Below are positions 89-11,703 of a stretch of DNA of 38,586 nucleotides, in pieces. The position numbers and the translations under genes were made by a program. The notes beneath the pieces are model-generated. The model was not told the origin of the DNA. It ran no database searches and saw only the letters and a list, made by a program, of their open reading frames with translations. Each line of letters starts with the position of its first letter. Positions within the stretch are counted from its first letter, which is position 1. Source of the DNA: Promethearchaeota archaeon (lineage in GTDB: Archaea > Asgardarchaeota > Lokiarchaeia > Sigyniarchaeales > SOKP01); contig SHMW01000034.1 of the NCBI GenBank assembly GCA_008080735.1, forward strand, positions 1 through 38,586, in the 5' to 3' direction.

Positions 89-2155
89 TTAGAAGTATTG
101 GGAAGTTAAAGTGGAAATTTGACCTAAAAGATCGGGTTTTTGTATATTGCTTTCATAAAATGTCTTTATCTGGGAAAAAATTGTGGAGAACGGAACCTCC
201 GGTTGTTTAATAAATGGTGTGAGGTTAAAGTATGGGGTAGGGAATATAAACTCGAAATTCGGAACCCACTCATCAGAGATGAGCATATTATATATTTCAT
301 AATGTTGGTTTTGGATTTGTTGGTCCAATTCTGACAAATATAGCATACGAACTAAAGCTTCTGATAGTTTTTGAAAATAAGAGATATATTCATTGCGCAT
401 AGATGGAGCAGTCTTTTCGCGTAAATTGTTAGAATGCTGAATATCATAATTGTATTGAGTGAGAAATTGTAATATTTTGCTTACCGCAGCTACCGATTTG
501 GGAAGTGAATGGGGCATTGGCAAGGTTTTAATAAAACTACCGTTAAAGCGGAGATATCCTTGCGACATATGAAGCGTACTGTATAGACTTTTAAACAGAG
601 AGTCAATAAAGTGTGAATTTAGAATTGCTAGAAGAGCGAATAATTCATTAGTGGAAAGGGAGGGAATTCGTATAAAATATAGACCCGTGATATTTGTGAA
701 AATTCCCGGATCGTAAGCACAAGTTAAATCTTTCGCAATTTCTCGAAAAATTAATTTTTGCGTTGAGATTATTTCCATCTTGGATTTATTTTCCACGGGA
801 GTATGAAAATAGCTCACGGGTAATGAATGATTTGCGATTCGGATTTTTTTGTGGAATTTATAGTAGAATTTTCCAACATTCCCGGTACCGAGAAGAATTA
901 GGTCATCTTCGGACTGGTTTTTCTCATCCGCGCATTTGTAATATTTTCCATAATTTGTGAAAGCGTAAGGGCGATAAATTATCTGTAAATCACTAAATTT
1001 TCCTTCCATAGTCTCAAAATGAGAAAAGAGGGAATTTATCAAGTTAATATCACCTTTGAGAGGTATAACCCTATCTGGTAAGGAATATAATTGTTCTTGG
1101 GTGATGCTTTGTCTATTGGAATTAGTTAAATCCGTCAGTTTTTTAATACTATCATAAGTTTGAATCGTTATTTTACTTTCCTTCGTAGGCGGAGTATTAA
1201 AAAGAGTCAAAATAATAGGATAGACTGAATGAGTAGAGAAGATTTGTAACGAGGAGATATTTAATATCTGGGTGATATGGGCATTTTTCATGAGCAAATT
1301 TCGAATTTTAACTCCATAATTAGAGGATAAAAACTTATTTGTGATAATAAAGCAAAGAATTCCATAATCTTGTTTCAAAATACGTAAAGATTGTTCTATA
1401 AATACAATAGACAAGTCAAATAACTTATATGCGGATTCAAAGGATCTATAAAGCTTTTGTTTATATGATTTATTCATTGTTTTATTGTCAACATAAGGGG
1501 GATTTCCAATGATAATATTGAATTTAAATTTCGGACGGTAATTCAGGAGAAAATCGTGGTCTAAGATGTTGAACTTGATGCCTAGATCATTGATGGAGGC
1601 GCCGATCCTATCTAAATCTTTGAGGTTTGGGGTTTTAAACTTATTTAAAACATCGCTTTTATTGGGTATATCTTCGAGCAACCATATAAATAGACGTATT
1701 TTTGATATAATACACGCATTTTTATCAAAATCTATACCATATAAATTATCCTCTATGATTTGTGTTTTTAAAGTCCACCTGTCAGTCTTCGGAAATAATA
1801 CACAATAAAAAGTGAGTAATAATTCTGCTAATTGAATTAAAAATCTGCCCGAACCGCAAGATGGGTCTAAAATTAAGATATTTCGCACTTGGTCTCGTAA
1901 TAAGGTTTTATCGGTTTGCTTCTTAGTTATAGTTTTGAGAAAAGGCTCAATAGATTTTAATAAATTTTTACCGAGTTGTATGTTAAAGAATTGGTTAAAA
2001 TATTTAATGAACGTATCAGTGACCATTAATTTGACGATCTCTGTAGGAGTATATACCGACCCAGTTTTTTTAGGAGCAGAATCTTTATCAAATTTCTTTA
2101 ATTCAAACGTTTTTATTAGATTCTCGAAATGATGTATTTTTTGATTCCTATTCAC
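89..2155 (-). CDS. N6-adenine DNA methyltransferase (gamma class, Eco57I/TaqI-like), no nuclease domain evident
   Basis: Motif X GSVYTP, motif I ILDPSCGSGRF, NLYGID, motif IV IIGNPPY; TaqI_C-like C-terminal region (KLIFREIA...LLAILNS...GYLRF); GTG start. Confidence 0.88.
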   Translation of the reverse strand: MNRNQKIHHFENLIKTFELKKFDKDSAPKKTGSVYTPTEIVKLMVTDTFIKYFNQFFNIQLGKNLLKSIEPFLKTITKKQTDKTLLRDQVRNILILDPSCGSGRFLIQLAELLLTFYCVLFPKTDRWTLKTQIIEDNLYGIDFDKNACIISKIRLFIWLLEDIPNKSDVLNKFKTPNLKDLDRIGASINDLGIKFNILDHDFLLNYRPKFKFNIIIGNPPYVDNKTMNKSYKQKLYRSFESAYKLFDLSIVFIEQSLRILKQDYGILCFIITNKFLSSNYGVKIRNLLMKNAHITQILNISSLQIFSTHSVYPIILTLFNTPPTKESKITIQTYDSIKKLTDLTNSNRQSITQEQLYSLPDRVIPLKGDINLINSLFSHFETMEGKFSDLQIIYRPYAFTNYGKYYKCADEKNQSEDDLILLGTGNVGKFYYKFHKKIRIANHSLPVSYFHTPVENKSKMEIISTQKLIFREIAKDLTCAYDPGIFTNITGLYFIRIPSLSTNELFALLAILNSHFIDSLFKSLYSTLHMSQGYLRFNGSFIKTLPMPHSLPKSVAAVSKILQFLTQYNYDIQHSNNLREKTAPSMRNEYISYFQKLSEALVRMLYLSELDQQIQNQHYEIYNMLISDEWVPNFEFIFPTPYFNLTPFIKQPEVPFSTIFSQIKTFYESNIQKPDLLGQISTLTSQYF

Positions 2156-3741: not shown

Positions 3742-3990
3742 TTAAATTAATTCGCTCGCATCGGGCTTAATAAACAAAAGATTGTTGCCTCTAATGAAGA
3801 TTTCACTGTATTTAGCCACTGGACTTCCATCAAGGATCTCAGTGGCGTCTTCAAGGATCATATTCATATATGCATCGATTTCCTTTAGTAATCCTCTATA
3901 TTCTGTACCATCCTTTAAACGTAGTAGAATCTCTGAATTTTGAGCATTCTGTAATATTGTGAGCGGATTTTTAGATTGCTGTTTCGACAT
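3742..3990 (-). CDS. Sm-like (LSm/SmAP) RNA-binding protein
   Basis: Sm1 motif YRGLLKEIDAYMNMILED and Sm2 motif IFIRGNN. Confidence 0.95.
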   Translation of the reverse strand: MSKQQSKNPLTILQNAQNSEILLRLKDGTEYRGLLKEIDAYMNMILEDATEILDGSPVAKYSEIFIRGNNLLFIKPDASELI

Positions 3991-5685: not shown

Positions 5686-6477
5686 TTAATTTGGGATAAA
5701 AATATATTTTTTATAGGTTTTAGAGAATGAAACTGTCTCATAGACAATTGGAATAGTCTCAATGAGTAATGCCATCAAATTTAATATTATAAAAAAGATA
5801 AAATCAGATTTCGGGATTAAAAACAAAATATCAGTAGAACCTTCCTGAAATAAAAAGAGGAATATTCCCTGGCTAATATAAAGTAAGATCCCAATATCAA
5901 TACTTATAACTATGATACTCAAAATAATTAGCCAAAAATCTTTCTCGTAAAATGCAATTAGAAGGTTAATAGAAAAAAGGATGAGGGTTGAAATCGTAAT
6001 TATTCTATACACAAACAACATAAAGAAATAATTGGTGGAAGATATTTGATAGCTAGATGTGTTTGAGGGAAGGAATAAAAGACTTGCTATATAAAATATG
6101 GATAAAATCTTCAAAAAAGAACTGATTGTAATTATAGCAAAAGTTATCCTTATTGTCGAAAATTTGCTATATTTTAATTTTCCCCTCTTTTTGTTTTCTT
6201 TGGCAAGTTCCAACATATTTTCGATTTGATTCGTTATTTCGGAGGGAAATTTGTTTTGATTCTCAATAATATTCCAATTTTTATCGCTATTTTCTGATAA
6301 TAAAGAGAATAATTGAGCTTCAGCCTTTCTCTTTCTGGCCCTTTTTATATTCGGCCCCTCCCAGATATAAATTTTTTCATGCTCCGTATCAATAAAAGCA
6401 CATATATCATGAAAAAGAAGGATCTGAGTTTCTTCTATCCATCTATTCTCTTCATTATAAATAAATATTTTAAGCAT
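5686..6477 (-). CDS. Membrane protein with N-terminal gelsolin-like domain and about 4 transmembrane helices
   Basis: LLFHDICAFIDTEHEKIYIWEGPN...K..A resembles the gelsolin repeat pattern D.FILD....IY.W.G followed by a long helix; hydrophobic segments at about aa 110-245. The domain call is by eye. Confidence 0.6.
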   Translation of the reverse strand: MLKIFIYNEENRWIEETQILLFHDICAFIDTEHEKIYIWEGPNIKRARKRKAEAQLFSLLSENSDKNWNIIENQNKFPSEITNQIENMLELAKENKKRGKLKYSKFSTIRITFAIITISSFLKILSIFYIASLLFLPSNTSSYQISSTNYFFMLFVYRIITISTLILFSINLLIAFYEKDFWLIILSIIVISIDIGILLYISQGIFLFLFQEGSTDILFLIPKSDFIFFIILNLMALLIETIPIVYETVSFSKTYKKYIFIPN

Positions 6478-6588
6478 AAGGTCATTTCTATAAAATTTTA
6501 CTAATTAAAATGCTTTTCTAACAAGTTACAACTCAAAAAAACAATAGAAACAAATAAATAAAAAAAGTAAGCTAGGAAAAAATTAATA

Positions 6589-7485
6589 TTAATCTTCTAT
6601 TCTATCCTTCAATTCTTCCCATAGTTGATTTACATACTGCTTATATTGTTGAATTTCCTCTTCCTTTATCCCAGCAAATCGTTTTTGTGTTTTAAGATAT
6701 TCCCTTATAGGTGTTCTATTTTCCTTATCTAAATATTTCTTACTTTTCTTAGATAAAGTAAATTTACCGTTCTCAACTTCATAGAGAGGCCAAAAACCCG
6801 TTTCCACAGCTAGTCTGCCAATACTTATAGTGTCCTTAGGGTCATATCCCCATCCTGGAGGACAAGGCGCTAAAATATGAATATATTTCGTTCCTTGAAT
6901 GGTTTTCGCTTTTTGGAATTTTTCATAGAGATCGAAGGGATATGATGCGCAAGCAGTGGCAACATACGGAATTCCATGGGCTTCTAGGATCTTTGGCATA
7001 TTTTTTTTATGCCCTAATTTTCCGTCTGGTGTTGTTGTGCTGAACGCGCCCAAAGGAGTAGATCCACTTCGTTGGACCCCAGTATTCATATAAGCTTCAT
7101 TATCATAACATGCATATATAAAATTAGTTCCTCGTTCCGCAGCTCCACTTAGTGCTTGTATCCCAATATCGGTAGTTCCACCATCTCCTGCGAAGGCGAC
7201 TGTACAGATTTCTTTATCTAAGCCTTTATCTTCTAGGGAAGCGATAATACCAGAAGCTGACGCCCCAGTCGTCGCAAATGGAGTGTGTAAAACTGAAAGC
7301 TTTGTGGAACAGAATCCTTGCATTCCGTGTAATACGGTCAAACAAGAAGCAGGGACTGTAAGGATTGTATTAGGTCCCAATGCTTTTAAGGCAATTCGAT
7401 ATATTAATGCCATTCCGCATCCCGCACAAGCTCGTGTTCCAGGATAAATAAATTCTTCTTCTCTAAGATCCATAACATTTACCAT
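6589..7485 (-). CDS. porB: Pyruvate/2-ketoisovalerate:ferredoxin oxidoreductase beta subunit (TPP-binding)
   Basis: ACAGCG, GDGG...DNEAYMNTG, APCPPGW; start at 7485 preferred (alternative 7497). Confidence 0.92.
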   Translation of the reverse strand: MVNVMDLREEEFIYPGTRACAGCGMALIYRIALKALGPNTILTVPASCLTVLHGMQGFCSTKLSVLHTPFATTGASASGIIASLEDKGLDKEICTVAFAGDGGTTDIGIQALSGAAERGTNFIYACYDNEAYMNTGVQRSGSTPLGAFSTTTPDGKLGHKKNMPKILEAHGIPYVATACASYPFDLYEKFQKAKTIQGTKYIHILAPCPPGWGYDPKDTISIGRLAVETGFWPLYEVENGKFTLSKKSKKYLDKENRTPIREYLKTQKRFAGIKEEEIQQYKQYVNQLWEELKDRIED

Positions 7486-7486
7486 T

Positions 7487-8767
7487 TTAACTCTCATCCC
7501 CTTTTTTTAGAAAATCTAATTCGTCTAATTTTAATCCAATAAATTCTGTTTTACTTGAAAATTCCCTATTTTCGGCGTATTTTAGTCCTTGGTTCACTCC
7601 ATAGATAATTTGGTCATCACTCACGTTTCTCCCACCTAAACCAATCACGAATCCTTTAATAAAGGGTGGATGATCAATGCCATATAATGCTGCTTTTAAT
7701 TCATATGCAAGAACGCCTTCATGTCCATAGCCAATATCCCTATCAAAGACAATTATATTGTCAAATTGCTTGAAATATTCTCGTAGTTCTGAGACCGGGA
7801 ATGGTCTAAATAATTTTAAGCTTACTAGACCAATTTTCAGACCATCTTTCCGCATCTTATCAATTGCACTTCTGGATTGGGATGCCACAGACCCCATGGC
7901 AAATATTACAGTATCGGCATCTTCAGTTTTATATTTCTTGTAAACACCATTTCCATAGGATCGACCAAAAGTTTCGGCAAATTCATCATGCACTTCTTTT
8001 ACAATATTAATAGAATTTTCAAGCGCTTTCTGTAGTGAATATCTGAATTCATAATACCCAGGCGCGGTACCCTCTTCTCTCTTAACAATATGAGGTGTGG
8101 TGACTGGGTCGACTCCCTTTACTTGAGAGATGTCTGATAAATTAATATGGTGCTGTAAAGGAGGTAAAAATCCATCAATTGCTTCTTGGGGTTCTAAAGT
8201 AATGGGCATCATAGTGTGACTTAAAATATATCCATCATACCCGACAATAGCAGGCAAAAAAACGCGTGGGTCTTCTGCGATCTTAAATGCTTGAATATTT
8301 GTATCATATATTTCTTGATTATCCTCAACAAACATCTGAATCCAACCGACATCTCGTATGGTCATAAAATCTTGGTGATCTGTCCATACACTCCAGGGAC
8401 CTCCGAGTGCTCTTGTTGCTAAATTGATTACAATTGGTAAACGGTTACCAGATGCCCAAGGAAGCATCTCATACATCAACTCTAATCCATGGGCAGAAGT
8501 TGCAGTTCCAACCCGAGACCCAGTAGCAGAGGCGGCACAGCATACAGCAAGCGCCGAATGTTCCGACTCGACTTTTACGAACCTTGCTTTCATCTTTCCT
8601 TTTGCAATAAAATCCGAGATCTTTTCCACTACCGGACTCTGTGGAGTAATGGGATATGCAGAAATAACGCCTACATTTGCTTGTCGAAATGCATGGGCAG
8701 CTGCATGATTTCCCGTGACAATTTTCGTAATTTTTTTATTTTTGGTCGATTCGATTGTCTGAGTCAT
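7487..8767 (-). CDS. porA: Pyruvate/2-ketoisovalerate:ferredoxin oxidoreductase alpha subunit
   Basis: GNHAAA, AYPITPQS, VESEHSA, FRPFP, GLGGR. Confidence 0.93.
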   Translation of the reverse strand: MTQTIESTKNKKITKIVTGNHAAAHAFRQANVGVISAYPITPQSPVVEKISDFIAKGKMKARFVKVESEHSALAVCCAASATGSRVGTATSAHGLELMYEMLPWASGNRLPIVINLATRALGGPWSVWTDHQDFMTIRDVGWIQMFVEDNQEIYDTNIQAFKIAEDPRVFLPAIVGYDGYILSHTMMPITLEPQEAIDGFLPPLQHHINLSDISQVKGVDPVTTPHIVKREEGTAPGYYEFRYSLQKALENSINIVKEVHDEFAETFGRSYGNGVYKKYKTEDADTVIFAMGSVASQSRSAIDKMRKDGLKIGLVSLKLFRPFPVSELREYFKQFDNIIVFDRDIGYGHEGVLAYELKAALYGIDHPPFIKGFVIGLGGRNVSDDQIIYGVNQGLKYAENREFSSKTEFIGLKLDELDFLKKGDES

Positions 8768-9064
8768 TTATTCTTCCACCCTCTCCATTTTTATCGCATC
8801 TACAGGGCATTCCTCCATACATATTCCACACCCTTTGCAATATTCTAAATTTATTTCAGGAGGGATTGTTCTGGACACGACAGCCTCAGGACAATATAGC
8901 CAACAATTAAAACATGCATACTTTCCCGATTTTGCAGGAATACAAACTTCTAAGTTTATCACTGGTTTTAAAGGAGACCAAGTACCAGTCTTGCCAGCTT
9001 CCCCAATCACTGGTTTCTGTATTGACGATAATATTTTCTGATAATCTTTTTTCGAATCATTCAT
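8768..9064 (-). CDS. porD: 2-oxoacid:ferredoxin oxidoreductase delta subunit (2x[4Fe-4S])
   Basis: KTGTW..KPVI, C-x9-CxxCxxxCP and CKGCGICMEECP; abuts porA. Confidence 0.88.
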   Translation of the reverse strand: MNDSKKDYQKILSSIQKPVIGEAGKTGTWSPLKPVINLEVCIPAKSGKYACFNCWLYCPEAVVSRTIPPEINLEYCKGCGICMEECPVDAIKMERVEE

Positions 9065-9344
9065 TTTAATCGAGTTTTTTCCATTTACTATATTAAAGTA
9101 GGAAAAAATAAAATTGTTTTAGTTTACAAAAATAAGTAATTGAATTATGATCTATTTCTCCTAAAATAAATAGTTTTTATGTATTTCCGTTCTAAGCATG
9201 AATTTTCGTATTTTAAATTACAAAACTTAAAAAAATTTTAAATATTAGTTAAGTAGTTATTAGGGAATAACATATAAGATAAGTGATGGTTTTCTGGATA
9301 CTTTTAAGCAAATATTTGAAAAATTAGAAGAAGTTATTCTAATA

Positions 9345-11108
9345 TTGGATAAGGATTTAGTCGTAGAATATATCAATAAGGATATATTCTTAGGCTATTC
9401 ATATGAGAAACTTGTTGGAAAAAATATATTGACTTTTGCAGAATCAAAGAAATTAAACTCAACAAATAAAGAAGCAAAAGAAATAGTACATTCCCAAGAT
9501 GAGTTTAAACTTCGCTTGACGAAAAAAAATGGAGAGGCAAAGGAATATAATGCTTTTAATCATGAGTTTCAATCAAATCCAAATAAACTATTGATTTTGC
9601 TTAAGGAATTAGAAAATCAAGAGACCAATCCAGACGAGGATTATCGATTCATTATTGAAAATGTGAGCGATATTATTTCTGTGTTTGATGAAAATTATGA
9701 TTTAATATTCATTAATAAGGCACAGGATTCGGTTTCTGGCTTTTCTAAGGAGGAGGTTTTAGGAGAGAGCCCATTTGATTATTTACATCAGGAGGATATT
9801 AAAAAAGCAGCTAAAATGTTCCAGCAGGCATCGGTTAAAGGATATAGTAGCGGAGAATTCAGAATGCGTAATAAAAGTGGAAAGTACGTTTGGCTTGAAG
9901 TTAATATTAAAAGAGCAACGGATAAAAAAGGAAGAAAAAGAATTATTGTCTCTTCACGTGATATAGAAAAGCGAAAAAGGATACAAGAGGAACTGAAAAA
10001 TTCAGAAAAGCGATATTTACACCTATTTGATAATTCGCCGTTTGCGATTATACTAATTGATTTACATGGAAAAATAATCGAGATCAATTCGACCACCAGT
10101 TCATTAACGGGATATGAAAAACAAGAATTAGTAGGTAAAAATTTTCAAGACCTTTCTCTAATTCAATCCTCATTTTACCCTCCTTTAATGAGGAGATTTA
10201 AGAAATTAGTCCAAGGGAAACATTTACCTCCTATAGATTTGAAGTTATACAAGAAAAATGGAGAGGAAATCTGGGTTAATTTTGGAACTTCCTACATTAA
10301 GATCGGAGATCAAGAATTTATTCAATCTATAGGGTACGATATATCAGATCAAAAGAAAGCGGAACTATTAATCAAGCAAGAAATAAAAAAACTAAGGGAA
10401 TTGGAGCAGATGAGGCGAGACATTATTATGAGGGTTTCGCATGAACTAAAAACTCCTCTAATATCAATAATAGGCGGAACTGAGTGGATGGAAATGTCTC
10501 TTAAACAGAAGAAAGATAACGATATAAATGAAGTTTTAGATATGATAGAAAGAGGAGGCAATCGCCTAAATAAATTAGTTGATAGGCTTTTAGATATTTC
10601 AAAAATAGAATTTGGAAAATTAACACTAAACAGAAAGAAGACAGACCTTAAAAAGTTGATTAATGAAGTGGTCAGGAGTTTTGATTTTTTATGTGATAAA
10701 AGAAAAGTACACATAACCACAGATTTATCAGAACAAATAGTTCTTAATATCGATCCACTAAGGCTTGAGCAAGTAATTTCTAACCTCATTTCAAATGCAA
10801 TAAAAAATACACCTTGCGAGGGGATTATACACATTCAATTGAAAAAGGAGGAGGGATTTGCTAGCATAAGAGTAGAAGATAATGGAATTGGATTAACTAA
10901 GTCAGAATTAAAGAAAATTTTTAAAAGATTTGGTAAGATTGAACGAGAAGGAGAGGGATTGGAATATCTAGACTCGAGCGGCTCAGGACTGGGGCTTTTT
11001 ATTTCAAAAGAAATTATTCTGAAACATAGAGGAACAATATTCGCAGAATCTGAAGGTCGAGGGAAAGGGTGCAATTTTACAATAAAACTTCCTTTTGAAA
11101 ATAAATAG
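9345..11108 (+). CDS. Cytoplasmic multi-PAS sensor histidine kinase (true start probably upstream, about 9267-9294)
   Basis: PAS repeats, H-box SHELKTPL, N-box NLISNAIK, G1 DNGIG, G2 GSGLGL; frame open upstream to 9264 encoding PAS-like FKQIFEKLEEVILILD. Confidence 0.93.
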   Translation: MDKDLVVEYINKDIFLGYSYEKLVGKNILTFAESKKLNSTNKEAKEIVHSQDEFKLRLTKKNGEAKEYNAFNHEFQSNPNKLLILLKELENQETNPDEDYRFIIENVSDIISVFDENYDLIFINKAQDSVSGFSKEEVLGESPFDYLHQEDIKKAAKMFQQASVKGYSSGEFRMRNKSGKYVWLEVNIKRATDKKGRKRIIVSSRDIEKRKRIQEELKNSEKRYLHLFDNSPFAIILIDLHGKIIEINSTTSSLTGYEKQELVGKNFQDLSLIQSSFYPPLMRRFKKLVQGKHLPPIDLKLYKKNGEEIWVNFGTSYIKIGDQEFIQSIGYDISDQKKAELLIKQEIKKLRELEQMRRDIIMRVSHELKTPLISIIGGTEWMEMSLKQKKDNDINEVLDMIERGGNRLNKLVDRLLDISKIEFGKLTLNRKKTDLKKLINEVVRSFDFLCDKRKVHITTDLSEQIVLNIDPLRLEQVISNLISNAIKNTPCEGIIHIQLKKEEGFASIRVEDNGIGLTKSELKKIFKRFGKIEREGEGLEYLDSSGSGLGLFISKEIILKHRGTIFAESEGRGKGCNFTIKLPFENK

Positions 11109-11109
11109 G

Positions 11110-11703
11110 TTATAGCGTTTTCGCTAATTTATATCCTTCTTCTATTAATTTATTATTTATTTCACTTAATTCTTCATTCATACGGTTCTTTATGATTTTT
11201 TTAAGGTTTTCTAGGCTTAAATCAGGAATGGCTTTTGCGAGCAACCCTAATATTGGAGTATTAACGATTGGGTTTCCATCGATAAGGAGATTATTTTCGA
11301 TTGCCAATTTGTTGATATCGGCGACAATAATTTTAGTTCTATCGCTCAAATTGTAAATTTTTTTAAAATATTGGGGGTCCTTATTAGAATTTACAATAAA
11401 AATCCCATCTGGTTTTAAAGAAGCCACTATTTGTTGATCCAAGACGCTTGCATCGAAGACAATCAAAATATCTGGTTCTTCGATTGAAGAGCGATCCCAA
11501 ATCTTTTTATTCTTCGACAATTTTGCATAAGCTTGAATAGGTGCCCCTCTACGTTCCGCTCCAAAACTGGGAAAGGCAGTAACATCGGCAAAATTCTCAC
11601 TTAAGAAGGCCGCTTCTACGATTATCTGAGAGGCAGTCACTGCTCCTTGTCCACCCCTGCCGTGAATTACTATCTTAAGTATCTCGTTTTCTTGTTCGGT
11701 CAT
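11110..11703 (-). CDS. porG: 2-oxoacid:ferredoxin oxidoreductase gamma subunit
   Basis: HGRGGQGAVT, FPSFGAERRGAP, IVNTPILG. Confidence 0.92.
   Translation of the reverse strand: MTEQENEILKIVIHGRGGQGAVTASQIIVEAAFLSENFADVTAFPSFGAERRGAPIQAYAKLSKNKKIWDRSSIEEPDILIVFDASVLDQQIVASLKPDGIFIVNSNKDPQYFKKIYNLSDRTKIIVADINKLAIENNLLIDGNPIVNTPILGLLAKAIPDLSLENLKKIIKNRMNEELSEINNKLIEEGYKLAKTL

What the first reader, a model, noticed from the sequence alone, without database searches (positions are those of the whole stretch)
5686..6477. Gelsolin-like domain fused to a four-pass membrane domain: candidate membrane tether for Asgard actin
Seen: the first ~90 aa show D-I-C-A-F-I-D-x5-IYIWEG followed by a helix (KRARKRKAEAQL), matching the gelsolin repeat core; about 4 TM helices follow, with no signal peptide, so the domain should be cytoplasmic. 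The acidic residues of the usual Ca2+ sites (Glu in the long helix, the EGxE motif) appear replaced, and the helix is strongly basic. Known: Asgard archaea encode actin and soluble gelsolin-family regulators. Inference: an integral-membrane, possibly Ca-independent, actin- or lipid-binding protein that could couple the cytoskeleton to the membrane. I do not know of a described architecture like this.
Basis: partly seen in the sequence, partly recalled or inferred. Interest (0 to 1): 0.75.

Follow-up and report, generated by a model that had tools for sequence, protein, structure and literature searches.

The report
Membrane-anchored gelsolin-domain protein of Lokiarchaeia
This gene encodes a conserved Asgard-archaeal membrane protein whose cytoplasmic head has the gelsolin (actin-regulator) fold and is joined to a four-helix membrane module, so it is a testable candidate for the unknown link between the archaeal actin skeleton and the cell membrane; actin binding itself has not been shown.

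Summary
The ORF at 5686-6477 (-) is real, 263 aa, and the quoted motifs are there. A profile of residues 1-104 finds villin (E 1.5e-9), gelsolin (2e-7) and Thorarchaeota ProGel (3.3e-4). The AlphaFold model (pLDDT 91) matches only gelsolin domains: ProGel Z 9.5, and all of the top 50 rows. Pfam's own gelsolin model misses the protein. Residues 106-258 form four transmembrane helices, and the K+R distribution puts the head in the cytoplasm. The family is single-copy. It occurs in 111 of 134 genomes of the window's family and in three sister families of the same order, including cultured Lokiarchaeum ossiferum (UYP46179.1, 'hypothetical'). It was nearly absent from the rest of the phylum sampled. 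The type-2 Ca2+ Asp is invariant (D24), but the Glu is Arg48 and the type-1 Asp is Leu60, so Ca2+ control looks lost in this clade. I found no paper describing this architecture. This scan has already noted the same family on at least nine other genomes. This is a new variant of a known kind.

The parts
5686..6477 (-). Whole gene, 263 codons plus TAA stop (5686-5688)
   Evidence: conserved full length in homologues
6184..6477 (-). Cytoplasmic gelsolin-fold domain, aa 1-98 (strands 2-7, 13-15, 25-30, 35-40; long helix 46-63; strand 69-71; helix 79-98)
   Evidence: AF2 domain model pLDDT 91.4; profile vs PDB: villin 1.5e-9, gelsolin 2e-7, ProGel 3.3e-4; Foldseek top hit 7c2f_B E 3e-4, TM 0.69 by target; VIA Z 9.5, rmsd 2.7, 84 aligned
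6406..6408 (-). Asp24, equivalent of the gelsolin type-2 Ca2+ Asp (G1 Asp66 / G3 Asp302); invariant in 36/36 family representatives
6355..6363 (-). Trp39-x-Gly41, the W-x-G core of the gelsolin signature (W in 33/36, G in 36/36)
   Evidence: DWG motif described in PMC7444086
6334..6336 (-). Arg48 at the position of the type-2 Ca2+ Glu (W+9; aligns with the Glu of gelsolin G3 and of both domains of this genome's own 2DGel). It is K/R in 19/20 close homologues and E/D in 5/36 of the wider family.
6298..6300 (-). Leu60 at the position of the type-1 Ca2+ Asp (Glu+12; Asp in this genome's own 2DGel domain 1)
   Evidence: G1 Asp109 role from PMC5368644
6163..6183 (-). Short basic juxtamembrane linker, aa 99-105 (GKLKYSK); lower pLDDT
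6073..6162 (-). TM helix 1, aa 106-135
5944..6039 (-). TM helix 2, aa 147-178 (ends in invariant Glu178 within the close family)
5872..5937 (-). TM helix 3, aa 181-202
5812..5871 (-). Outer loop, aa 203-222, carrying the most conserved membrane-domain motif Q-G-I-F-L-F-L-F-Q-E-G-S-T (Phe208 in 97% of the wider family). A short strand, 218-222, lies beside strand 142-146 of the first outer loop in the model.
5704..5811 (-). TM helix 4 and basic cytoplasmic end, aa 223-258
6501..6510 (-). AT-rich TTTTAATTAG, 24-33 nt upstream of the ATG with no Shine-Dalgarno-like sequence between. A possible archaeal TATA box for a leaderless transcript (inference from the sequence only).
   Evidence: sequence read directly; not tested

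Best explanation
The gene encodes an integral membrane protein with N-in/C-in topology. Its cytoplasmic N-terminal 98 residues are a diverged, single gelsolin/cofilin-type domain. A linker of about 7 residues holds that domain directly on the inner face of the membrane, above a conserved four-helix transmembrane bundle. [quoted passage not shown] That would fix actin monomers, filament ends or filament sides to the membrane. In the window's clade this binding would not be Ca2+-controlled: Arg48 replaces the type-2 Glu and may pair with the retained Asp24, and Leu60 replaces the type-1 Asp. The membrane bundle is as conserved as the head and has a conserved hydrophobic outer loop, so it probably does more than anchor (self-association or an outside contact). 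Shown here: the fold, the homology, the membrane domain, the conservation, the distribution and the residue substitutions. Inferred: topology (positive-inside rule), actin binding, Ca2+ independence and any role in protrusions.
For: Gelsolin homology. A profile of aa 1-104 from 18 family members hits villin at 1.5e-9, gelsolins at 2e-7 to 2.5e-6, Thorarchaeota ProGel 7c2f_B at 3.3e-4, adseverin and CapG at about 1e-3, and Loki 2DGel at 0.033. Foldseek on the full model returns gelsolin domains only, with ProGel first. VIA on the domain model gives ProGel Z 9.5 / rmsd 2.7 / 84 of 88 residues, and every one of the top 50 rows is a gelsolin-family domain. PF00626 is the commonest weak Pfam hit in the family, in 10 of 36 members.

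Signature residues. D24 and G41 are invariant and W39 is present in 92%.

ProGel and 2DGel domain 1, the nearest solved relatives, were crystallised on actin, and ProGel also lacks Ca2+ sites (PMC7444086).

The genome has a binding partner. It encodes Lokiactin (444 bits to PF00022), ARPs, and soluble gelsolins of the 2DGel and GelX types.

A Lys at the type-2 Glu position is shared with this genome's two GelX-like paralogues. The Thor 1DGelX class acts on actin without Ca2+ (PMC7444086).

Membrane part. Four hydrophobic helices are present. Mean K+R per segment is: inside 3.4 (juxtamembrane), 1.3 (4-residue turn) and 7.0 (tail); outside 0.5 and 0.4.

Selection. The gene is single-copy and stop-free in 111/134 genomes of the window's family, and in 16/19 genomes of three sister families.
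Against: No direct or predicted evidence of actin binding was obtained. [quoted passage not shown] The solvent-exposed face of the long helix is not conserved across the wider family. Only the buried positions 52, 56, 59 and 63 are conserved, which is not what one expects if that face contacts the highly conserved actin in all members. Identity to any actin-binding gelsolin is only 16-22%. The family profile barely detects this genome's own gelsolins (E 0.013 and 0.44). The L. ossiferum orthologue is not among the five gelsolin-homology proteins enriched in the published Lokiactin co-IP, although the authors say that the experiment under-represents membrane proteins. The high conservation of the membrane bundle suggests that its own, unknown, activity may be the main function.
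Confidence: 0.5

Rival explanations
1. The gelsolin fold is used here for a partner other than actin, as in the gelsolin-like domain of Sec23/Sec24. The head would be a cytoplasmic docking or regulatory module for another protein or for acidic lipids. The protein would then have no direct cytoskeletal role.
For: The exposed helix face varies across the family. The conserved polar residues cluster at E15, H23, D24 and D30, not on the helix. The head is very diverged from actin-binding paralogues in the same genome. Sec23a is cited as a gelsolin fold without known actin binding. In this clade the helix and juxtamembrane region are strongly basic (net +4 to +6), which would suit acidic lipid head groups.
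Against: All significant sequence and structure matches are to actin-binding gelsolin-family domains, with Asgard ProGel first. No Sec23/24 chain appears among the rows shown. The basic character is clade-specific, so lipid binding by the helix cannot be the family's common function.
Confidence: 0.28
2. The four-helix membrane bundle is the functional core (a small channel, transporter subunit, sensor or oligomeric scaffold). The gelsolin-like head merely regulates or localises it.
For: Within the window's family the membrane region is as conserved as the head: mean column identity is 0.68 against 0.67. It has invariant polar or small residues (E178, S187, G196, G204, Q211) and the outer-loop motif GxFLFxFQ. 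Phe208, Gly196, Tyr200 and Ile221 stay conserved in the wider family.
Against: The bundle matches only generic or designed four-helix bundles (Z 10-16, with no membrane-protein family standing out). It has no Pfam or Atlas relatives outside its own cluster. Across the wider family the head is better conserved than the membrane part (0.45 against 0.37). Four helices with short loops are few for a transporter.
Confidence: 0.17
3. Not a real gene: a chance ORF in AT-rich DNA between porB and rio2.
For: The region is AT-rich (GC 0.29), there is no Pfam hit, and it is annotated 'hypothetical' wherever it is named.
Against: Full-length, stop-free homologues down to about 20% identity occur in 129 genomes, with a conserved start and length. 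Both AF2 models are confident. There is significant profile homology to gelsolin.
Confidence: 0.01

Closest known systems
Thorarchaeota ProGel (PDB 7C2F chain B; Akil et al. 2020, PMC7444086)
   Same: A single gelsolin/cofilin-type domain of about 90 aa. It is the best structural match (Z 9.5, rmsd 2.7, 84 residues; Foldseek E 3e-4) and a significant profile match (3.3e-4). It has the D...W.G signature and no functional Ca2+ sites.
   Different: ProGel is a free soluble protein. Here the domain is fused through about 7 residues to a conserved four-helix membrane bundle. Identity is only 16-18%. ProGel's actin contact was shown by crystallography; here it is untested.
Asgard 1DGelX / L. ossiferum B35_GelX class (single gelsolin domain plus a C-terminal 'X' extension)
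   Same: One gelsolin domain followed by a non-gelsolin C-terminal module. There is a Lys/Arg at the type-2 Glu position, as in this genome's two GelX-like paralogues. Thor 1DGelX acts without Ca2+. The family profile's best hit in its own genome is a GelX-like protein (E 0.013).
   Different: The X module is soluble (coiled-coil or disordered), not transmembrane. GelX paralogues lack the Asp24 equivalent. Sequence similarity is marginal.
Eukaryotic gelsolin/villin/adseverin/CapG (PF00626 repeats)
   Same: The same fold and recognisable sequence homology (villin 1.5e-9, gelsolin 2e-7). Asp24 lines up with the type-2 Asp.
   Different: The eukaryotic proteins have 3-6 repeats, are soluble, are switched by Ca2+, and meet the membrane only peripherally through phosphoinositides (my own knowledge). 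Here there is one repeat, integral to the membrane, with the type-2 Glu and type-1 Asp replaced. The protein falls below Pfam's cut-off.
Sec23/Sec24 gelsolin-like domain
   Same: A gelsolin fold placed at a membrane-associated machine, possibly without actin binding.
   Different: It is part of a large COPII coat subunit, not a membrane protein. No Sec23/24 chain was among the matches listed.
Ponticulin of Dictyostelium (integral membrane F-actin-binding protein; recalled from memory, not tested)
   Same: A functional analogy only: a small integral membrane protein proposed to attach actin directly to the plasma membrane.
   Different: The fold is unrelated as far as I know. No comparison was run.

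Membership tests
Gelsolin repeat superfamily (PF00626-type domain) | Fold: mixed beta-sheet packed between a long helix roughly parallel to the strands and a second, shorter helix | tested here: met
   The AF2 domain model (pLDDT 91.4) has the order b-b-b-b-long helix-b-helix. All top 50 VIA rows and all listed Foldseek rows are gelsolin-family domains, at Z up to 9.5.
Gelsolin repeat superfamily (PF00626-type domain) | Detectable sequence homology to gelsolin repeats | tested here: met
   The family profile against PDB gives villin 1.5e-9, gelsolin 2e-7 and ProGel 3.3e-4. The caveat is that the single sequence gets no Pfam hit. Only 10 of 36 members touch PF00626 (best E 0.00099; listed at E <= 1, and the gathering cut-off was not reported per member). 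A whole-genome PF00626 scan misses this gene.
Gelsolin repeat superfamily (PF00626-type domain) | D...W.G signature (as opposed to the WP of cofilins) | tested here: met
   D24 36/36, D30 30/36, W39 33/36, G41 36/36. The motif is described in PMC7444086.
Ca2+-regulated gelsolin domains | Type-2 site: Asp at the start of the central strand plus Glu at the N-terminus of the long helix (G1 Asp66/Glu97) | tested here: not met
   The Asp is present (D24), but the Glu position is Arg48 (K/R in 19 of 20 close homologues). It aligns with the Glu of gelsolin G3 and of both domains of this genome's own 2DGel. Five of 36 wider-family representatives, and the L. ossiferum orthologue, keep E/D there.
Ca2+-regulated gelsolin domains | Type-1 site Asp near the C-terminus of the long helix (G1 Asp109), shared with actin Glu167 | tested here: not met
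   Leu60 lies at the position where this genome's own 2DGel domain 1 has Asp. The role of Asp109 is taken from PMC5368644.
Actin-binding gelsolins (functional class) | Binds G- or F-actin | not testable with these tools
   The co-folding job with this genome's own Lokiactin was not run by the tool. No biochemical data exist.
Asgard 1DGelX / GelX | Gelsolin domain followed by a soluble X domain (coiled-coil or disordered) | tested here: not met
   The C-terminal module here is four hydrophobic transmembrane helices, not the X domain described in PMC7444086.
ADF/cofilin | ADF-H fold with extra helices and a WP motif | tested here: inconclusive
   No cofilin or twinfilin chain is among the rows shown, and W-x-G is present rather than WP. 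Lower-ranked rows were not inspected.
Known four-pass membrane families (tetraspanin, claudin/PMP22, MARVEL and the like) | Specific structural or sequence match of the membrane domain | tested here: inconclusive
   The wide VIA search gives only generic and designed four-helix bundles (Z 9-16, within the range common for helical models). There is no Pfam family. Atlas features return only the protein's own cluster. The membrane domain was not folded alone.

The most novel reading that the evidence does not exclude
This family is the direct, integral-membrane attachment point for Lokiactin in Lokiarchaeales. The gelsolin head would cap or hold filament ends at the inner membrane face, and the conserved outer loop of the bundle would contact the envelope or partner cells. 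The family would therefore underlie the actin-filled protrusions and crawling seen in cultured Asgard archaea. The L. ossiferum-type subfamily keeps the type-2 Asp/Glu pair and carries a conserved C-tail motif KP(S/T)(I/L)L(R/Q)D; it would be the Ca2+-responsive version.
Probability: 0.3. Interest if true: 0.85.

Novelty: new variant of a known kind. Interest (0 to 1): 0.6.

Why it matters
Cultured Asgard archaea build actin-filled, fast-moving protrusions. The actin regulators described so far are soluble profilins and gelsolins, and the searched papers name no protein that couples Lokiactin to the membrane. This family is invisible to Pfam's gelsolin model and is annotated 'hypothetical'. 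It is absent from the gelsolin list of the L. ossiferum study. Yet it is a near-universal single-copy gene of the window's own family (111/134 genomes) and is found across the sister families of the order sampled, and it is present in a cultured species. That makes the actin-membrane question directly testable with one small protein. If binding is shown, it would be a prokaryotic precedent for an integral-membrane actin anchor built from the gelsolin fold. If binding is not shown, it is a documented case of the gelsolin fold being reused at a membrane.

Tried and rejected
The tool did not fold it because the actin chain looks eukaryotic.

2. Single-sequence searches were uninformative. Pfam gave nothing for the full protein. 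For aa 1-110 it gave only a sub-threshold Phage_tail_terminator_7 hit (E 0.017, 15 bits against a cut-off of 27), which I take as chance. phmmer against PDB gave only an HD phosphohydrolase at E 0.32.

3. Membrane domain: the wide structural search returned only generic or designed helical bundles. Atlas features returned only the protein's own cluster. No family assignment was possible.

4. Conserved neighbours as a functional clue. The order porD-porA-porB / this gene / rio2 / methyltransferase / LSm is kept in three homologous loci at 32-44% protein identity to the query. In the sister family (L. ossiferum, Harpocratesius) the gene instead lies between a TFB gene and a large Eco57I-like methylase gene. 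I therefore read the Rio2/OFOR adjacency as lineage synteny, not a functional link.

5. Expression in L. ossiferum. The accession and locus tag of the orthologue are not in the searchable papers or in the held supplements. By gene order it would be GNAMCCOK_02484, because a 54.8-kDa entry, _02486, fits the neighbouring RtcB. That tag is absent from the held, partly cut proteome table. The mapping is inferred, so this is inconclusive.

6. The sigma-70 promoter/terminator scan does not apply to an archaeon and was ignored.

7. A partial hit in a distant family (G058) turned out to be the C-terminal half of the head plus the start of the membrane domain (profile positions 34-135), continuing into a long multi-pass hydrophobic region that was not identified (I ran no family search on it), on an 8-kb contig. 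It may be a rearrangement or a mis-assembly and I did not pursue it.

Full report
**Observation.** The minus strand of the window carries an ATG-to-TAA ORF at 5686..6477 that encodes 263 residues. The N-terminus is not signal-peptide-like. Hydropathy shows four membrane-length hydrophobic stretches after residue about 106.

The gene is not a chance ORF. It has 21 clusters of homologues at 90% identity and 60 representatives at 50% identity in an exhaustive phmmer scan. The complete ones (about 250-320 aa) cover the query from end to end; the shorter hits match only part of it and look like fragments. There are stop-free matches in 129 of 400 genomes of the phylum.

**The head is a gelsolin domain.** The single sequence gets no Pfam family, and a whole-genome PF00626 scan finds three other gelsolin genes but not this one.

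- A profile of residues 1-104 from 18 family members (A2) hits PDB chains of villin (1.5e-9), gelsolin (2e-7 to 2.5e-6), Thorarchaeota ProGel 7c2f_B (3.3e-4), adseverin and CapG (about 1e-3), and Lokiarchaeota 2DGel (0.033).
- AlphaFold2 models are confident: full length pLDDT 84, head alone pLDDT 91.4 and pTM 0.81.
- The secondary-structure order is four strands, a long helix (46-63), a strand, and a second helix (79-98).
- Foldseek returns only gelsolin-family domains, with ProGel first (E 3e-4, TM 0.69 by target).
- VIA gives ProGel Z 9.5 (rmsd 2.7, 84 of 88 residues), human gelsolin G2 Z 9.3 and Loki 2DGel Z 7.8. All 50 rows shown are gelsolin domains.
- PF00626 is the commonest weak Pfam hit among family members, in 10 of 36.
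- The D...W.G signature that Akil et al. use to separate gelsolins from cofilins (PMC7444086) is the best-conserved feature of the whole family: D24 36/36, W39 33/36, G41 36/36.

**Calcium sites.** In the HMMER alignment to gelsolin G3, the family's Asp24 column falls on the type-2 Asp. The column nine residues after Trp39 falls on the type-2 Glu. The residue roles come from my own knowledge; the positions of Asp66, Glu97 and Asp109 in G1 are given in PMC5368644.

A direct alignment with this genome's own two-domain gelsolin shows the same pattern. Both of its domains have Asp and Glu at these two positions, and its domain 1 has an Asp twelve residues after the Glu, which is the type-1 position. 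The window's protein has Asp24, Arg48 and Leu60.

Position 48 is Lys or Arg in 19 of 20 close homologues. It is Glu or Asp in 5 of 36 wider-family representatives and in the L. ossiferum orthologue. The two GelX-like paralogues of this genome also carry Lys there, and Thor 1DGelX acts on actin without Ca2+. I therefore infer that the window's clade is not Ca2+-switched, and that Arg48 may pair with Asp24. This is inference: I could not measure the distance in the model.

The strongly basic long helix is specific to this clade. Net charge over residues 43-63 runs from -2 to +6 across the family.

**The membrane module.** AlphaFold2 places helices at 106-135, 147-178, 181-202 and 223-258. Two short strands in the outer loops (142-146 and 218-222) lie in the two outer loops.

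Across 36 family representatives, mean K+R is 3.4 in the juxtamembrane stretch, 1.3 in the four-residue TM2-TM3 turn and 7.0 in the C-tail. It is 0.5 and 0.4 in the two outer loops, which are net acidic. By the positive-inside rule the head and the tail are cytoplasmic.

The bundle matches only generic or designed four-helix bundles and has no relatives outside its own cluster.

Within the window's family the bundle is as conserved as the head (0.68 against 0.67 mean column identity). The motif QGIFLFLFQEGST lies at the start of the second outer loop, and Phe208 is kept in 97% of the wider family. So it is probably more than a passive anchor. Only about 7 residues, of lower confidence, separate the second helix of the head from TM1, so the head must sit on the membrane surface.

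**Distribution and context.** The family profile matches 111 of 134 genomes of the window's own family, nearly always once per genome. It also matches 1/1, 12/14 and 3/4 genomes of three sister families of the same order. In all other families of the phylum sampled it gives only one partial hit.

One matching genome is Candidatus Lokiarchaeum ossiferum B35 (UYP46179.1, locus NEF87_002464, 'hypothetical protein'). Another is Candidatus Harpocratesius repetitus.

In the window's family the gene lies between porB (2-oxoacid:ferredoxin oxidoreductase beta) and rio2, followed by a methyltransferase and an LSm gene. In the L. ossiferum family it lies between a TFB gene and an Eco57I-like methylase gene. 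The neighbours therefore do not point to a function.

The genome encodes Lokiactin (444 bits to PF00022), several ARPs, a 2DGel with a zinc-ribbon tail and two GelX-like proteins.

**Literature.** Akil et al. list three Asgard architectures, ProGel, 1DGelX and 2DGel, none of them membrane-embedded. The L. ossiferum crawling study names five gelsolin-homology proteins. The orthologue of this family is not among them. The authors note that their co-IP under-represents membrane proteins. Full-text searches combining gelsolin, Asgard/Lokiarchaeota and transmembrane or anchor terms found no description of this design. The library is incomplete, so this is absence of evidence only.

**What it most likely does.** My best reading (confidence about 0.5) is a membrane-fixed actin-binding gelsolin head. 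It would hold Lokiactin monomers, filament ends or filament sides at the inner membrane face, without Ca2+ control in this clade. The case for it:

- The nearest relatives by sequence and by structure are actin-bound gelsolin domains.
- The genome has the partner.
- The head is pinned to the membrane.

The case against:

- The exposed face of the long helix is not conserved family-wide.
- The head is very far from actin-binding paralogues in its own genome.
- The gelsolin fold is known without actin binding.
- Nothing here tests binding. The co-folding job was not run by the tool.

The rivals are a non-actin partner or lipid for the head (0.28), a membrane-bundle-centred function (0.17) and a spurious ORF (0.01).

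**Earlier notes of this scan.** The same architecture has been noted and followed up on at least nine other genomes. Those notes agree with what I found independently. I did not use them to set the scores.

**Verdict.** This is a new architectural variant of the gelsolin family. Interest is moderate to high, because it turns an open question, how Asgard actin meets the membrane, into a one-protein experiment.

Noticed in passing
L015:4758-5606 (L. ossiferum orthologue P0202) and representatives P0050, P0064, P0070, P0071, P0074, P0079: The L. ossiferum-type subfamily has a 30-60-aa cytoplasmic C-terminal tail that the window's protein lacks. The tail carries a conserved short motif (K/R)P(S/T)(I/L)L(R/Q)D(K/R). 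It loosely recalls the WH2-like LKKV/LKDV/LRRV motifs of Asgard 2DGel proteins; this is a lead from memory and, and was not tested. Other subfamilies have different tails (WKEW..., or H.RYG.P.(I/V)VDLRK).
   Followed up: partly
family-wide, window aa 15, 23, 24, 30 (window 6388-6435, minus strand): The best-conserved polar residues of the head are E15 (92%), H23 (89%), D24 (100%) and D30 (83%). They lie on the strands around the type-2 site, not on the actin-facing helix. They could form a conserved metal- or ligand-binding patch. I could not inspect the model coordinates.
   Followed up: no
L018:1829-3118 (-) (genome G058, a different family of the phylum): An open frame of 430 aa contains only the C-terminal half of this head and the start of the membrane domain (profile positions 34-135, E 1.6e-22). 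It then continues into a long multi-pass hydrophobic region that I did not identify (no family search was run on it). The upstream part of the frame does not match the head. It is either a domain-swapped remnant or a mis-assembly on an 8-kb contig.
   Followed up: partly
L001:1441-2475 (+), own genome contig C21: The genome's two-domain gelsolin (344 aa) keeps the Asp/Glu type-2 pairs in both domains. It ends in an acidic linker plus a CxxC...CxxC zinc ribbon.
   Followed up: no
L003:505-1821 (-) and L004:766-1833 (-), own genome contigs C19 and C1: These are two GelX-like paralogues (438 and 355 aa). Each has an N-terminal gelsolin domain with Lys at the type-2 Glu position, a long low-complexity linker and repeated C-terminal modules (...LYGAISKK..VFGE...). 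One of them ends in what looks like a helix-hairpin-helix-type tail.
   Followed up: no
window 3742-3990 (-): An 82-aa ORF lies where the syntenic loci carry an LSm (PF01423) gene. It falls below common ORF-size cut-offs.
   Followed up: partly
window 89-2155 (-) and L015:1763-4765, L017:1406-4567: A large Eco57I/MmeI-like N6-methylase gene stays near this gene in both families: about 3.5 kb away in the window, and directly downstream (overlapping by 11 nt) in L. ossiferum. The reason is unknown and it may be residual synteny.
   Followed up: no
window 6589-11703: The porD/A/B genes and porG are separated by an opposite-strand PAS histidine kinase (9345-11108). The same arrangement (a PAS kinase beside porDAB) appears in loci L012 and L013.
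   Followed up: partly
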